In this document: piece by piece, positions 33,001 to 36,000 of the stretch
Layout of the letters: each line of letters opens with the position of its first letter
Numbering within the stretch: position 1 is the first letter of the stretch
Virus record (IMG/VR): IMGVR_UViG_2718218396_000003
Direction: 5' to 3' (one strand)
From: a virus
Lineage: Duplodnaviria > Heunggongvirae > Uroviricota > Caudoviricetes
Length of the DNA stretch: 64,000 bases
Program-made: the position numbers

Positions 33001-36000
33001 TGGGCGAAGAATTCGCCATGGTGCTGGCGGATTTACAGCGTACATTTGAGGAGAAAATAGCCGCGCAGGCACAAACGTTTGAAGAAAAACTGGCTTCTCA
33101 GTCTGTGGTATTACAGAAGTGCGTGACGGGTGATGATGTGCGTCCGATGCTTGAGCAGATGGTGAAAGAGGCAGTGAGCCATATTCCTGTTCCGCGCGAC
33201 GGTCGTGACTACGATCCGGATGTTCTGCAGAAGGCGGTGAATGATGCGGTTGCGAATATTCCGGTACCGGCAGACGGCAAAAGTATCACCCCGGATGATG
33301 TGCGTCCGATGCTTGAGCAGATGGTGAAAGAGGCAGTGAGCCATATTCCTGTTCCGCGCGACGGTCGTGACTACGATCCGGATGTTCTGCAGAAGGCGGT
33401 GAATGATGCGGTCGCGAAAATACCGGTACCGGCAGACGGTAAAAGTATCACTCCGGATGATGTGCATCCGATGCTTGAACAGATGGTGAAGGAGGCGGTA
33501 AGCCATATTCCTGTTCCGCGTGATGGTCGTGACTACGATCCGGATGTTCTGCAGAAGGCGGTGAATGATGCGGTCGCGAAAATACCGGTACCGGCAGACG
33601 GTAAAAGTATCACTCCGGATGATGTGCATCCGATGCTTGAACAGATGGTGAAGGAGGCGGTAAGCCATATTCCTGTTCCGCGTGATGGTCGTGACTACGA
33701 TCCGGATGTTCTGCAGAAGGCGGTTCTGGAGGCGGTGAGTGCCCTGCCGGCTCCGCAGGACGGGCGTGATGCCACGGCACTGGAAATACTCCCCGCCATT
33801 GACGATCAAAAATCCTTTCCCCGGGGCTCGTATGCCACACACCAGGGTGGACTCTGGCGGGCGTATGAAAAAACGTACGGGATGCGGGGATGGGAATGCC
33901 TGGTTGACGGGGTGGCGGATATTGACGTCAGCATGACGGGTGAACGGTCGTTCTCTGTGGTGGTCCGGCAGAGCAGTGGCCAGCGTACGGAAAAAACATT
34001 TTCCCTGCCGGTGATGCTCTACCGTGGTGTGTTCAGAATCGGTGAAACCTACCACCCCGGTGATACGGTGACGTGGGGGGGCTCGCTGTGGCACTGCAAC
34101 AGTATGACCGCCGATAAACCGGGGGATGCGCATGCATCTGGCTGGACGCTGGCTGCCAAACGGGGACGGGATGCAGGAGGCGGAAAATGACGGCATTACT
34201 GACACTGGAAGAGATCAAGGCACATCTGCGTGTCGACCATGACGCGGATGATGACATGCTGATGGACAAGGTTCGTCAGGCTACCGCCGTGCTGCTGGCC
34301 TACATTCAGGGCAGCCGGGATAAAGTGATCCGTGAGGACGGTGAACTGATCCCGGGCGAGGCATTAACCCGGATGAAGGGGGCTGCCATGCGACTGACCG
34401 GGATGCTGTACCGGAATCCGGATCTTGCGGAGCGGGAAGAACTGCTTCAGGGGGAGCTGCCGTTTTCTGTTTCCGTGCTGATTTACGATTTGCGTTGTCC
34501 GACGGTGTTATGAGGAGGGGGAATGGCAATATCTGCAGGTCGTCTGACACAGATGATAAGTGTTCTGAACCCGGTGTTAACCCGTAACGCTGCCGGAGAA
34601 ATGACGGAAGAATGGGTGTCATGCGGGAAAATTCATGCGGATATCCGGGGCAGGAGCAGCCGGGAGCGGATGCAGTCCGGTGCGGAAATGGCGCAGGCGG
34701 AAATCCGCATCTGGGTGCGCGGTCAGTCCGGTCGGGAAATCACGGCAGCGTCACGACTTCATGTGCTGAGTGGTCCCTGGCGTGACCGGATCCTGAACGT
34801 TGTCGGGCTGCCCGTGCCGGATGCGACCGGCGGACGTCTGGAAATTCTCTGTCGGCTGGGAGGGGAAAAATGATCGAAACCCTGCTGGATTTTTCGGGGC
34901 TGGAGGACATCAGCCGCGATTTGCAGCTTCTGAGTGGTGCAGAAAATAACCGGGTGCTGCGTGAGGCAACCCGTGCGGGTGCGAATGTGCTGAAAGAAGA
35001 AGTGGTGTCACGGGCACCGGTACGCAGGGGAAAACTGCGCCGCAATGTGGTGGTCCTTTCCCGGTGCTCCCGCGATGGCGGGATGGAATCCGGTGTGCAT
35101 ATCCGGGGTGTTAATCCGGACACCGGTAACAGCGATAACACCATGAAGGCGGATAACCCGCGCAATGCTTTCTACTGGCGGTTTGTGGAAATGGGGACCG
35201 TGAATATGCCACCGCACCCGTTTGTGCGCCCGGCATTTGATGTGCGCAGTGAACAGGCGGCACAGGTGGCGATTGCGCGGATGAACCGGGCCATTGATGA
35301 GGTACTGAGACGATGACGGAGGCGGATTTGTATCCTCATCTGGCACATCTTGCCGGCGGGCAGGTGTACCCGTATGTGGTCCCCCTGCTGGATGGCAGGC
35401 CGTCGGTGGCGCTTCCGTGGGTGGTTTTCAGCCTGATTTCATCGGTGTCTGCGGACGTGATGGGCGGGCAGGCGGAGTCCTCAGTGTCGGTGCAGATAGA
35501 CGTTTATGCCGGGACTGTGACGCAGGCGCGTCAGATACGTCAGGACGCCCGTGAAGCCATAATGCTGCTGGCCCCGGGATCCGTCAGTGAAATGCAGGAC
35601 TATATTCCGGAAAACCGCTGTTACCGTGCAACCCTGGAGTTTCAGGTCACGGTGTAATTTTTTCAACAGAACCCATAACCCGCCGCGTGCGGGTTTTTTA
35701 TTATCAGGAGGCAGAATGTCTGCTTTGTATGAACGTTCACAGCTGACGCAGGTGATGATTTCATCTGCCCCGGCGACTGCTGAAACCATGGAGAAGGCGG
35801 AATATCTGCGCCTGGACTGCACCATCAAGGAAGTCCAGTTCACCGCCGGTCAGAAACAGGATATTGATGTGACCACGCTCTGCTCCACAGAGCAGGAGAA
35901 CATCAACGGTCTGGGGGCGTCGTCCGAGATTTCCATGTCGGGTAATTTTTATCTGAATCAGGCCCAGAACGCCCTGCGTGATGCCTATGACAATGACACG

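What the first reader, a model, noticed from the sequence alone, without database searches (positions are those of the whole stretch)
33132..33779. Four in-frame 162-bp tandem repeats in a head-module gene
The 407-aa protein between portal and head-tail connector contains four consecutive 54-aa repeats, two of them identical at the nucleotide level. Such repeats are prone to copy-number change and suggest a modular surface-exposed decoration or scaffold-like protein.
Basis: seen in the sequence. Interest (0 to 1): 0.5.

Follow-up and report, generated by a model that had tools for sequence, protein, structure and literature searches.

The report
Repeat-stalk fibre gene beside phage portal
The tandem repeats are real and lie in a conserved, uncharacterised phage head-module gene for a fibre-like protein with a variable repeat stalk and a sugar-binding-type tip, a gene that databases usually mislabel as a broken piece of the portal gene.

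Summary
A 162-bp in-frame tandem array lies at 33132-33779: 3.66 near-identical units plus a diverged last half-unit.

The window is an Stx2c-type E. coli O157:H7 prophage (100% to phage 1717). RefSeq and depositors call this ORF part of a "frameshifted portal", because some E. coli prophages have an 861-aa portal fusion. Comparative data reverse that reading. In about 90 diverged loci across alpha-, beta- and gamma-proteobacteria the order is TerL, protease::capsid, portal, this gene, Ad1 adaptor. This gene is separate there, and its start overlaps or abuts the portal stop. The fusion comes from G5 becoming G6 in a run that is also this gene's Shine-Dalgarno site.

The protein has a 50-aa N-terminal helix, eight 27-aa half-repeats (helix plus IPxPxDGxD loop), and a confident beta-domain built from CBM5/12-like motifs. 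Related prophages carry 1, 2, 3, 4, 5 or 7 units. dN/dS is about 0.18.

The best reading is a portal-vertex fibre with a length-variable stalk and a glycan-binding tip. Whether it sits outside the capsid or inside it is unresolved. No experimental characterisation was found.

The parts
31606..32970 (+). Portal gene (454 aa), HK97-type. It ends with a disordered linker and a short conserved terminal helix (...AVKAMFRGILRK*).
   Evidence: PF04860 E 1.4e-80. phrog_2271 positions 1-451. C-terminal architecture compared across 45 portals.
32951..32955 (+). G5 run inside AGGGGGA, 11 nt upstream of the ATG. It is the Shine-Dalgarno-like site of the downstream gene, embedded in the last portal codons. 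G6 at this spot fuses the two ORFs.
   Evidence: The indel was located by alignment with an intact 861-aa allele. G6 means fused in 24 loci and G5/G4 means separate in about 46 loci, with no exceptions. The equivalent site in other Enterobacterales is AGAGGA or AGAGGG, and other lineages also have purine-rich motifs there.
32967..34190 (+). The 407-aa ORF (stop included): a stand-alone portal-adjacent fibre-like protein. Its ATG overlaps the portal TGA (ATGA).
   Evidence: ORF list. The N-terminus is homologous to the N-termini of stand-alone relatives. The gene is separate in about 90 diverged loci.
32967..33131 (+). N-terminal segment (aa 1-55), predicted as a single long amphipathic helix. 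Proposed anchoring or oligomerisation element.
   Evidence: AlphaFold2 helix 3-52, pLDDT 85-94. A fixed-register heptad test was not significant.
33132..33779 (+). Tandem array of four 162-nt (54-aa) units, i.e. eight 27-aa half-repeats (amphipathic helix plus IPxPxDG[KR][DS] loop). Acidic, pI 4.6.
   Evidence: Model shows helices of 12-17 residues separated by 12-residue loops, pLDDT 50-70.
33363..33724 (+). Exactly duplicated stretch: 33363-33562 is identical to 33525-33724 (200 nt at lag 162).
33780..34187 (+). Conserved C-terminal all-beta domain (aa 272-407) containing two CBM5/12-like motifs (aa 281-313 = 33807-33905; aa 359-397 = 34041-34157).
34075..34081 (+). G7 run inside the second CBM-like motif. 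A G6 allele in relatives truncates the protein (...VTWGARCGTATV*).
   Evidence: The truncated allele is seen in L002, L019, L036 and L062.
34187..34513 (+). Head-tail adaptor Ad1 (gp6-like connector). Its start overlaps the stop of the fibre gene.
   Evidence: PF05135. phrog_40.
29457..31394 (+). Prohead protease (S78), scaffold-like segment and HK97-fold capsid protein in one 645-aa ORF. This is the hallmark of the head-module type that carries the fibre gene.
   Evidence: PF04586 plus PF05065. Co-occurs with the fibre gene in nearly all related loci.
27732..29393 (+). Large terminase, first gene of the conserved module.
   Evidence: PF03354 plus PF20441.

Best explanation
SHOWN. ORF 32967-34190 is an independent, conserved structural-module gene. 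It is not a fragment of a broken portal gene. It is translationally coupled to the portal: the start overlaps the portal stop (ATGA), and its Shine-Dalgarno-like site sits in the portal's last codons. It is under purifying selection.

The protein has three parts: a long N-terminal amphipathic helix; a stalk of tandem 27-aa helix-loop half-repeats; and a C-terminal beta-domain made of two CBM5/12-like motifs. The repeat number changes by unequal recombination in 162-nt steps, giving 1-7 units in close relatives.

INFERRED. The N-terminal helix anchors the protein, probably as an oligomer, at the portal vertex or neck. The repeats act as a length-variable, dispensable-length spacer. The distal domain binds a glycan polymer and gives the virion a weak accessory adhesion, much as whiskers or head fibres do in other phages.

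SHOWN for the genotype, UNKNOWN for its consequences. The 861-aa 'portal' of some E. coli prophages is a derived fusion caused by a G5-to-G6 slip in the Shine-Dalgarno run. The window carries the ancestral two-gene state.
For: - Separate gene with a native N-terminus: stand-alone relatives start with a homologous MNERELS..IKALGEEF helix.
- Conserved order: about 40 species genomes and about 45 environmental viral contigs keep TerL, protease::capsid, portal, this gene, Ad1, with overlapping or abutting stop and start. All IMG/VR loci whose portal is only about 67% identical keep the genes separate.
- Family size: 5,450 clusters at 50% identity with E<=1e-3. Most of the best 150 listed are 250-550 aa, too short to include a portal.
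- Fusion genotype: G6 always means fused and G5 always means separate.
- Selection: dN/dS of the C-domain is 0.18, against 0.11-0.19 for the portal.
- Variable stalk: 1-7 units. Unit 2 is chimeric. The stalk is acidic, pI 4.6.
- Weaker constraint than the portal: about 8 of 70 E. coli-type copies are truncated, while their portals stay intact.
Against: - No experiment places the protein in virions, and no paper on it was found.
- Fusion to the portal C-terminus recurs, is kept under purifying selection, and is seen once in a distant lineage (P0214). In solved portals (established knowledge) the C-terminus faces the capsid lumen, which fits an internal protein better than an external fibre.
- The gene is nearly universal in this module, and its tip is about 45-65% identical across hosts with very different surfaces. 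That is unusual for an accessory host-glycan binder.
- The N-terminal helix shows no significant heptad periodicity, and the oligomeric state is untested.
Confidence: 0.5

Rival explanations
1. Internal, portal-tethered head protein. The N-terminal helix docks on the flexible C-terminal tail of the portal inside the capsid, and the G6 fusion merely makes that tether covalent. The repeat stalk extends into the capsid lumen. The CBM-like tip either contacts a phage component or is released with the DNA and binds peptidoglycan in the periplasm, as an ejection or pilot-type protein would.
For: - Tight translational coupling to the portal in every lineage.
- Near-universal presence in this module type.
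- Recurrent fusion to the portal C-terminus, with dN/dS 0.18 retained in fused alleles, plus a distant fused example, P0214.
- Portals of this module end in a variable Pro/Ala/Ser-rich linker and a short conserved amphipathic helix exactly where this gene begins.
- The tip is conserved across alpha-, beta- and gamma-proteobacterial hosts. That fits a universal target such as peptidoglycan or a phage partner.
Against: - The structural neighbours of the tip are extracellular carbohydrate-binding modules and external fibre tips.
- Collagen-like tails and collagen-repeat neighbours are typical of external fibres.
- Some relatives have more than 25 half-repeats (P0123). If extended, these would be long for a capsid interior.
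- The stalk is strongly acidic.
- EHEC genomes carry several copies of this module (median 6 matching places per genome). Fused alleles could therefore be complemented in trans, and their persistence would say little about where the protein sits.
- No similarity to SPP1 gp7 / Mu F or to known ejection proteins.
Confidence: 0.3
2. The database reading: the ORF is the C-terminal half of an 861-aa portal gene that has been inactivated by a frameshift, i.e. a pseudogene fragment in a decaying prophage.
For: - RefSeq marks the identical locus 'phage portal protein, frameshifted', and depositors wrote 'portal protein (pseudogene)'.
- phrog_2271 is an 859-position profile that covers both halves.
- Intact 861-aa ORFs exist in JJ1887, phage 2851 and YYZ-2008.
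- This prophage copy is otherwise defective, with an IS element in the tape-measure gene.
Against: - The two-gene state is the only one found in the roughly 90 diverged loci examined; all are separate. One distant fused protein, P0214, is known without genomic context.
- The ATG at 32967 matches the native N-terminus of stand-alone homologues and has its own Shine-Dalgarno-like site.
- Both resulting ORFs are complete and under purifying selection.
- The split form occurs in most deposited long-tailed Stx phage genomes, including BP-4795.
- The 407-aa protein has no portal domain.
Confidence: 0.04
3. A non-virion assembly factor. A helical, acidic, scaffold- or chaperone-like protein that helps portal incorporation or head completion and is then discarded.
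For: - Position in the head-assembly block and coupling to the portal.
- Helical, acidic repeat region.
- The repeat number is tolerant of change.
Against: - The capsid ORF already contains the protease and a scaffold-like segment.
- The most conserved part is a CBM5/12-like beta-domain, for which a cytoplasmic assembly factor has no obvious use.
- Collagen-like tails in relatives.
Confidence: 0.08
4. A switch. The G5/G6 run works as a heritable, phase-variation-like toggle or as a ribosomal slippage site, so that a phage population or a single infection makes both free and portal-fused forms on purpose.
For: - Both alleles occur on the same flanking haplotypes, and on the rare 7-unit allele (L041 vs L042). 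This implies repeated slips.
- In the G5 allele, a -1 slip of tRNA-Gly on GGG, followed by the rare AUA codon, would recreate exactly the fused product. This follows from the sequence itself.
Against: - Runs of 5-6 G are short for high-rate phase variation.
- There is no canonical X XXY YYZ heptamer, and no downstream stimulatory structure was examined.
- Other Enterobacterales have AGAGGA with no homopolymer at this site, so the run is not a conserved feature.
- Recombination among co-resident prophages could also spread the alleles.
Confidence: 0.08

Closest known systems
Phage T4 fibritin (Wac), the collar and whiskers at the neck
   Same: An N-terminal anchoring segment, a stalk of many short helical segments separated by loops, and a small C-terminal domain. 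It is attached near the portal vertex and is accessory rather than essential. These properties of fibritin are from established knowledge.
   Different: No sequence or fold match was found. There is no foldon. Heptad periodicity was not detected here. The tip is CBM5/12-like. The gene sits between portal and adaptor and is coupled to the portal.
Phage phi29 head fibre gp8.5
   Same: A dispensable virion fibre whose shaft is built from repeating helix-turn-helix units (established knowledge). Here each unit is helix-loop-helix-loop.
   Different: No detectable homology. phi29 fibres sit on capsid quasi-threefold positions and their N-terminal base binds the capsid. The trimeric state of the present protein is untested.
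SPP1 gp7 / Mu gpF family (PF04233), the portal-associated minor head protein
   Same: It is encoded immediately downstream of the portal, it interacts with the portal inside the capsid, and in many phages it is found fused to the portal C-terminus (established knowledge). The present gene shows the same position and the same tendency to fuse.
   Different: No Pfam or PHROG match to that family. The architecture is entirely different: a repeat stalk and a CBM-like tip.
CBM5/12 chitin- and cellulose-binding modules (Serratia ChiB, S. griseus ChiC ChBD 2d49, EGZ CBD 1aiw)
   Different: Here the motifs occur as two diverged copies embedded in a 130-aa domain that has no whole-domain match. The window protein scores below Pfam's cutoff. 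The ligand is unknown.
P22 portal C-terminal barrel
   Same: In the fused allele the portal is prolonged by a long alpha-helix of about 50 residues. The P22 barrel is likewise a helical extension of the portal C-terminus into the capsid (established knowledge).
   Different: In this module the helix is ancestrally a separate protein and is followed by a repeat stalk and a beta-domain. No homology was tested or found.
Hoc-type capsid decoration proteins
   Same: A modular, repeat-built, non-essential virion adhesin whose module number varies.
   Different: There are no Ig-like domains here. In this same phage the Ig-like domain is on the tail tube protein instead.

Membership tests
Phage portal protein, HK97 family (PF04860 / TIGR01537) | Contains the portal domain (wing, stem, clip, crown) | tested here: not met
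   The 407-aa ORF has no PF04860 hit, whereas the upstream ORF scores E 1.4e-80. The PHROG 'portal' hits match only positions 455-859 of a profile built from fused sequences.
Phage portal protein, HK97 family (PF04860 / TIGR01537) | Is part of the same polypeptide as the portal domain across the family | tested here: not met
   It is a separate ORF in every diverged locus examined. It is fused only where the run is G6, in E. coli-type prophages, plus one distant case, P0214.
CBM5/12 carbohydrate-binding module (PF02839) | Sequence score above Pfam's gathering threshold | tested here: inconclusive
   The window protein scores 18.8 bits against a cutoff of 26.2. Homologue P0125 scores 29.8 bits and other homologues 19-25 bits at the same position. 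The family profile against PDB sequences hits CBM-bearing chains at E 4e-4 to 3e-3.
CBM5/12 carbohydrate-binding module (PF02839) | Characteristic small beta fold | tested here: met
CBM5/12 carbohydrate-binding module (PF02839) | Binds chitin, cellulose or a related glycan | not testable with these tools
   Needs pull-down or glycan-array experiments with the purified C-domain.
T4 fibritin-like segmented coiled-coil fibre | Heptad-repeat coiled-coil segments | tested here: not met
   A fixed-register a/d test on the N-terminal helix gave P of about 0.99 against shuffles. The helices are amphipathic, but no heptad register was demonstrated.
T4 fibritin-like segmented coiled-coil fibre | Trimeric, with a C-terminal foldon and attachment to neck proteins | not testable with these tools
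   No multimer prediction was available. No sequence or fold match to fibritin appeared.
SPP1 gp7 / Mu F minor head protein (PF04233) | Mu F-like domain | tested here: not met
   No Pfam, PHROG or NCBIfam hit.
SPP1 gp7 / Mu F minor head protein (PF04233) | Encoded directly after the portal and sometimes fused to it | tested here: met
   This is a positional analogy only.
Collagen-like phage fibre (PF01391) | G-X-Y triple-helix repeats | tested here: not met
   There are none in the window protein, which ends ...KRGRDAGGGK. They are present as short C-terminal tails in many relatives and in neighbouring ORFs of L122.
Ig-like (Hoc-type) decoration | Ig-like domains | tested here: not met
   No Ig family hit for this ORF.
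Programmed ribosomal frameshift site | Slippery heptamer X XXY YYZ plus a downstream stimulator, conserved among relatives | tested here: not met
   The sequence is C AGG GGG AUA, which is not a canonical heptamer. The homopolymer is absent from other Enterobacterales, which have AGAGGA. Downstream structure was not examined.

The most novel reading that the evidence does not exclude
This protein defines an uncharacterised, near-universal component of a very widespread HK97-type head module, the one with protease fused to capsid. It is physically tethered to the portal C-terminal tail. In E. coli, a slippage-prone G-run that doubles as the gene's ribosome-binding site acts as a genetic toggle between a free form and a form covalently tethered to all 12 portal subunits, giving heritable variation in virion architecture at the portal vertex.
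Probability: 0.12. Interest if true: 0.7.

Novelty: new variant of a known kind. Interest (0 to 1): 0.45.

Why it matters
There are three reasons.

1. **Annotation.** More than a thousand complete E. coli genomes and most long-tailed Stx phage records carry this locus. It is labelled either as a frameshifted portal pseudogene or as a second "portal protein". The comparative evidence says it is a distinct, intact gene, and that the fused 861-aa "portal" used as a reference is the derived form. This affects how prophage intactness is scored in EHEC genomes.

2. **Biology.** The family is large (thousands of clusters at 50% identity), it is tied to one common head-module type across Proteobacteria, and no function is assigned to it. 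A portal-coupled fibre with a glycan-binding-type tip would be a new piece of virion anatomy for temperate siphophages, including Shiga-toxin phages.

3. **Practical use.** The 162-nt copy number (1-7) and the two G-runs are simple, highly polymorphic markers for telling apart the near-identical lambdoid prophages that confound EHEC assemblies.

Tried and rejected
- **Spurious Pfam hits.** TetR_C_35, DUF4244, FliG_N and DUF7109 on the 407-aa protein are summed weak matches to the repeated helices. None has a significant stretch, so I rejected them as artefacts.
- **Other family searches.** NCBIfam gave only far-sub-threshold noise. A phmmer search against PDB sequences gave nothing below E 0.95.
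- **Heptad test.** I expected the N-terminal helix to be a heptad coiled coil. The test was negative, so the claim was dropped.
- **phi330.** I tried phage phi330 (PV189401; a Pankowvirus grown to over 1e9 PFU/ml with virion mass spectrometry) to learn which allele a proven viable phage carries. The record has five indels in this gene relative to BP-4795, its neighbouring genes are also split, and the held supplement shows peptide maps only for the podoviruses. It was uninformative.
- **Phage 2851.** The paper (Strauch 2008, PMC2583581) is not held. The viability of the fused-allele phage therefore rests on my own recollection and on the paper's title as cited in PMC12029490.
- **Literature.** Six searches found no description of this protein or of a post-portal fibre gene.
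- **Failed or swamped searches.** The search for related loci with the full-length alignment failed on genome contigs; a C-domain alignment worked. The first homologue search was swamped by partial E. coli fragments.
- **Not attempted.** I considered counting G5 and G6 alleles across all 5,426 complete genomes with short BLAST queries. Flanking SNP haplotypes would confound the identity bands, so I did not try.
- **Unidentified accession.** PF28083.1 appears in the precomputed domain lists of homologues but is absent from the local Pfam copy, so I could not identify it.
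Full report
**1. The observation.**
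Tandem Repeats Finder reports a period-162 array at 33132-33724 (3.7 copies, 97% matches, no indels, score 1053). It also reports a weaker ~75-nt sub-period. A gap-free repeat search finds three 281-nt copies spaced exactly 162 nt apart. The array is in frame with ORF 32967-34190 (407 aa). The left boundary at 33132 is exact.

The translation shows four 54-aa units (aa 56-271). Each unit is made of two 27-aa half-repeats:
- DDVRPMLEQMVKEAVSHIPVPRDGRDY
- DPDVLQKAVNDAVANIPVPADGKSITP

However, 33363-33562 is identical to 33525-33724 (200 nt), so one whole unit is duplicated without change in a shifted register. Unit 2 carries the 5' variants of unit 1 and the 3' variants of unit 3. Unit 4 equals unit 3 for its first 107 nt and then diverges. 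This mosaic is what unequal crossing-over produces.

**2. Where the window comes from and how the locus is annotated.**
The region is 100% identical to Stx2-converting phage 1717 and to Stx2c-type prophages of E. coli O157:H7. The neighbouring genes are:
- large terminase (27732-29393);
- a single ORF joining an S78 prohead protease to an HK97-fold capsid protein (29457-31394);
- the portal (31606-32970);
- the 407-aa ORF;
- then the gp6-like adaptor, head closure protein, gp10-like protein, tail completion protein and tail tube.

Public annotation does not treat the 407-aa ORF as a gene of its own. RefSeq marks 31606-34190 as one "phage portal protein, frameshifted". Depositors wrote "portal protein (pseudogene)" or listed two "portal proteins". 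PHROGs has an 859-position "portal" profile that the two ORFs match end to end.

The reason is that some E. coli prophages carry a single 861-aa ORF, for example JJ1887, phage 2851 and YYZ-2008. Alignment shows a single difference: a run of six G in those, and five G in the window (32951-32955). That change moves the portal frame into a TGA at 32968-32970.

**3. Which state is ancestral.**
Four lines of evidence say that two genes is the native arrangement.

(a) An exhaustive profile-free search of 1.84 billion cluster representatives finds 5,450 clusters at E<=1e-3 and 607 at E<=1e-30. Most of the best 150 listed are 250-550 aa long, too short to contain a portal domain. They begin with a Met followed by a helix homologous to the window ORF's first residues. 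Examples are MNERELSMIKVLGEEV, MTEREIAILKAISEEF and MNERELSLIKALGEEF, against the window's MTERELSIIRALGEEF.

(b) In IMG/VR, every locus whose portal is only about 67% identical to the window's has a separate downstream gene.

(c) In one-genome-per-species data, about 40 species keep the same order: TerL, protease::capsid, portal, this gene, Ad1. They include Kosakonia, Citrobacter, Erwinia, Pantoea, Pseudomonas, Marinobacter, Paraburkholderia, Rhizobium, Mesorhizobium, Phyllobacterium, Qipengyuania and a Caulobacteraceae MAG. The gene is separate in all of them and 167-581 aa long. About 45 more environmental viral contigs show the same order.

(d) In all lineages the start codon overlaps or abuts the portal stop, with overlaps of 4, 8, 14 or 1 nt, and one case with a 5-nt gap. 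A purine-rich Shine-Dalgarno-like motif lies 8-12 nt upstream. The window's AGGGGGA corresponds to AGAGGA or AGAGGG in other Enterobacterales.

So the G-run is this gene's ribosome-binding site, written in the last portal codons (...R-G...). In the E. coli lineage it happens to be a homopolymer, and adding one G fuses the two reading frames.

Among 70 E. coli-type loci, G6 always coincides with fusion (24 loci) and G5 or G4 with separation (about 46 loci). Both states occur on the same flanking haplotypes and on the rare 7-unit allele (L041 vs L042), so the slip has happened more than once. The split state is the majority among deposited long-tailed Stx phages, including BP-4795.

Pooled Nei-Gojobori dN/dS of the C-terminal domain is 0.18 in separate and in fused backgrounds alike. 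The N-terminal helix gives 0.27-0.31 and the portal 0.11-0.19. The gene is therefore functional in both states. The "frameshifted portal" label is best regarded as an annotation artefact.

**4. Anatomy of the protein.**
AlphaFold2 with a 47-sequence alignment gives three parts:
- **Helix.** One helix over residues 3-52, pLDDT 85-94.
- **Stalk.** Eight helices of 12-17 residues separated by 12-residue loops, pLDDT 50-70.
- **Tip.** An all-beta domain over residues ~275-400, pLDDT 93-97.

Modelled alone, the C-domain reaches pLDDT 91.8.

At sequence level the evidence points the same way:
- Pfam CBM_5_12 scores 18.8 bits in the window protein, below the 26.2 cutoff. It scores 29.8 bits in homologue P0125 and 19-25 bits in others, always at the same position.
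- A family profile hits All3316 (E 4e-4) and CBM-bearing chitin deacetylases (E 3e-3) among PDB sequences.
- The two halves of the domain align to each other (hhalign P 2.6e-4), which suggests two tandem CBM-like motifs.

BFVD neighbours are collagen-repeat proteins, CBM5/12 and ChiC_BD proteins and tail fibres. Many relatives end in short collagen-like G-X-Y tails.

The stalk is acidic (pI 4.6) and the tip mildly basic (pI 8.0). A fixed-register heptad test on the N-terminal helix was not significant. I therefore describe it only as a long amphipathic helix.

**5. Variation.**
Copy number among intact E. coli-type alleles is roughly as follows:

| Units | Loci |
|---|---|
| 1 | 2 |
| 2 | 5 |
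| 3 | about 16 |
| 4 | about 35 |
| 5 | 4 |
| 7 | 2 |

Changes are always in 162-nt steps. More distant relatives range from about 2 to more than 25 half-repeats, and one uses a different repeat, EPEPLPDI.

A second homopolymer (G7 at 34075-34081) is G6 in four loci and truncates the last CBM-like motif. About 8 of 70 copies are truncated in some way while their portals remain intact. This suggests weaker constraint than on the portal.

**6. What else occupies this slot.**
In a Variovorax prophage, two collagen-triple-helix ORFs sit between the portal and this gene. In contig L177 the post-portal gene encodes a 794-aa helical-repeat protein. It has a few IPxPxDG loops but no CBM-like end. The slot therefore encodes fibrous proteins in general.

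**7. How it most likely works.**
*Shown:* it is a separate, conserved, portal-coupled gene, with a three-part fibre-like architecture, a recombination-driven variable stalk and a CBM5/12-like tip.

*Inferred (confidence about 0.5):* the N-terminal helix anchors an oligomer at the portal vertex or neck. The stalk is a spacer whose length is not critical. The tip binds a glycan polymer and gives accessory adhesion, by analogy with T4 whiskers, phi29 head fibres and Hoc.

*Main rival (about 0.3):* the protein is inside the capsid, docked on the portal's C-terminal tail. That tail consists of a variable Pro/Ala/Ser-rich linker and a short conserved helix ending exactly where this gene begins. In the rival reading the tip meets a phage partner or, after ejection, peptidoglycan. 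This reading explains three things better: the recurrent and apparently tolerated fusion to the portal C-terminus, the near-universality of the gene, and the conservation of the tip across hosts with unrelated surfaces. The external reading better explains the fibre-tip fold, the collagen-like tails and neighbours, the very long arrays and the acidic stalk.

The fused alleles are a weaker argument than they first seem, for two reasons. EHEC genomes hold several copies of the module (median 6 matching places per genome), so complementation in trans is possible. The internal Shine-Dalgarno site and ATG also survive in fused alleles.

*Lesser rivals:*
- a true portal pseudogene (about 0.04), contradicted by section 3;
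- a discarded assembly factor (about 0.08);
- a purposeful G-run switch or programmed frameshift (about 0.08). The site is not a canonical heptamer, and the homopolymer is not conserved outside E. coli.

**8. Comparison with known systems.**
The protein is not a member of any of these:
- the portal family (no portal domain);
- the Mu F / SPP1 gp7 family;
- Ig-like decoration proteins;
- fibritin or the phi29 head fibre.

It shares the CBM5/12 fold in its tip, but the window sequence is below the curated threshold and binding is untested. Functionally it looks like a whisker or head-fibre type accessory. By position, and in its tendency to fuse with the portal, it resembles gp7 / Mu F proteins. 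I found no experimental work on it.

**9. Verdict.**
The repeats are real, and the prediction of copy-number variation is borne out. The sequence itself is already in databases, but it is mislabelled. The protein family is large, tied to one widespread head-module type, and uncharacterised. I rate it a new variant of a known kind (a repeat-stalk virion fibre or appendage), of moderate interest (0.45). The most useful immediate outcome is correcting the "frameshifted portal" annotation. The most interesting open question is whether the protein sits outside or inside the capsid, which virion proteomics and portal-vertex cryo-EM would settle.

Noticed in passing
window 37169-41724: The tape-measure gene is split by an IS3-family element. 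The N-terminal part is 37169-38503 (TMP_3 plus the start of Phage_HK97_TLTM). The IS carries orfA 38555-38881 (HTH_Tnp_1) and orfB 38878-39768 (rve). A 620-aa ORF at 39862-41724 is probably the remainder of the tape-measure gene. This prophage copy should be tail-defective, and its RefSeq twin also flags the gene as incomplete.
   Followed up: partly
window 34075-34081 (and L002, L019, L036, L062): A second homopolymer (G7) lies inside the C-terminal domain. It is G6 in four related loci, on both fused and separate backgrounds, and truncates the protein to ...VTWGARCGTATV*. It is a recurrent inactivating hotspot.
   Followed up: yes
window 35587-36432: The major tail tube protein carries a C-terminal Ig-like domain (Ig_2 / I-set, and a PHROG 'Hoc-like' match). 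The tail of this phage is therefore probably decorated with Ig-like modules.
   Followed up: no
window 36438-37117: A tail assembly chaperone pair, Phage_TAC_1 (36438-36812) and Phage_tail_T (36836-37117), is arranged like lambda G/T. The expected programmed -1 frameshift site between them was not examined.
   Followed up: no
window 31439-31660: A 73-aa ORF overlaps the annotated portal start by 55 nt. RefSeq annotates it as a hypothetical protein and it has no Pfam match. Either it is a real small gene or the portal start is mis-set.
   Followed up: no
window 29457-31394; L119, L121, L132, L134, L160: Prohead protease, scaffold-like segment and capsid protein form one 645-aa ORF here and in most relatives. 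In several loci, mostly alpha-proteobacterial, the same region is two ORFs of about 200 and 460-480 aa. This is a second fused-or-split polymorphism in the same module.
   Followed up: partly
L196 (phage phi330, PV189401) 3875-6620: The deposited genome of a plaque-forming Pankowvirus has five small indels in the portal and fibre region relative to BP-4795. Its gp10-like and tail tube genes are also split, which suggests sequence errors in the record rather than biology.
   Followed up: partly
homologues P0001-P0120: The precomputed domain lists for many homologues include PF28083.1. This accession is absent from the local Pfam copy and may be a recently created family covering part of this protein. 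It could not be identified.
   Followed up: no
L179, L180 (IMG/VR contigs) ~4745-8227: Proteins of about 1,157 aa give a weak match to the C-terminal domain profile (E of about 1e-6) with no portal nearby. The CBM-like domain may be reused there in a different, possibly tail-fibre, context.
   Followed up: no
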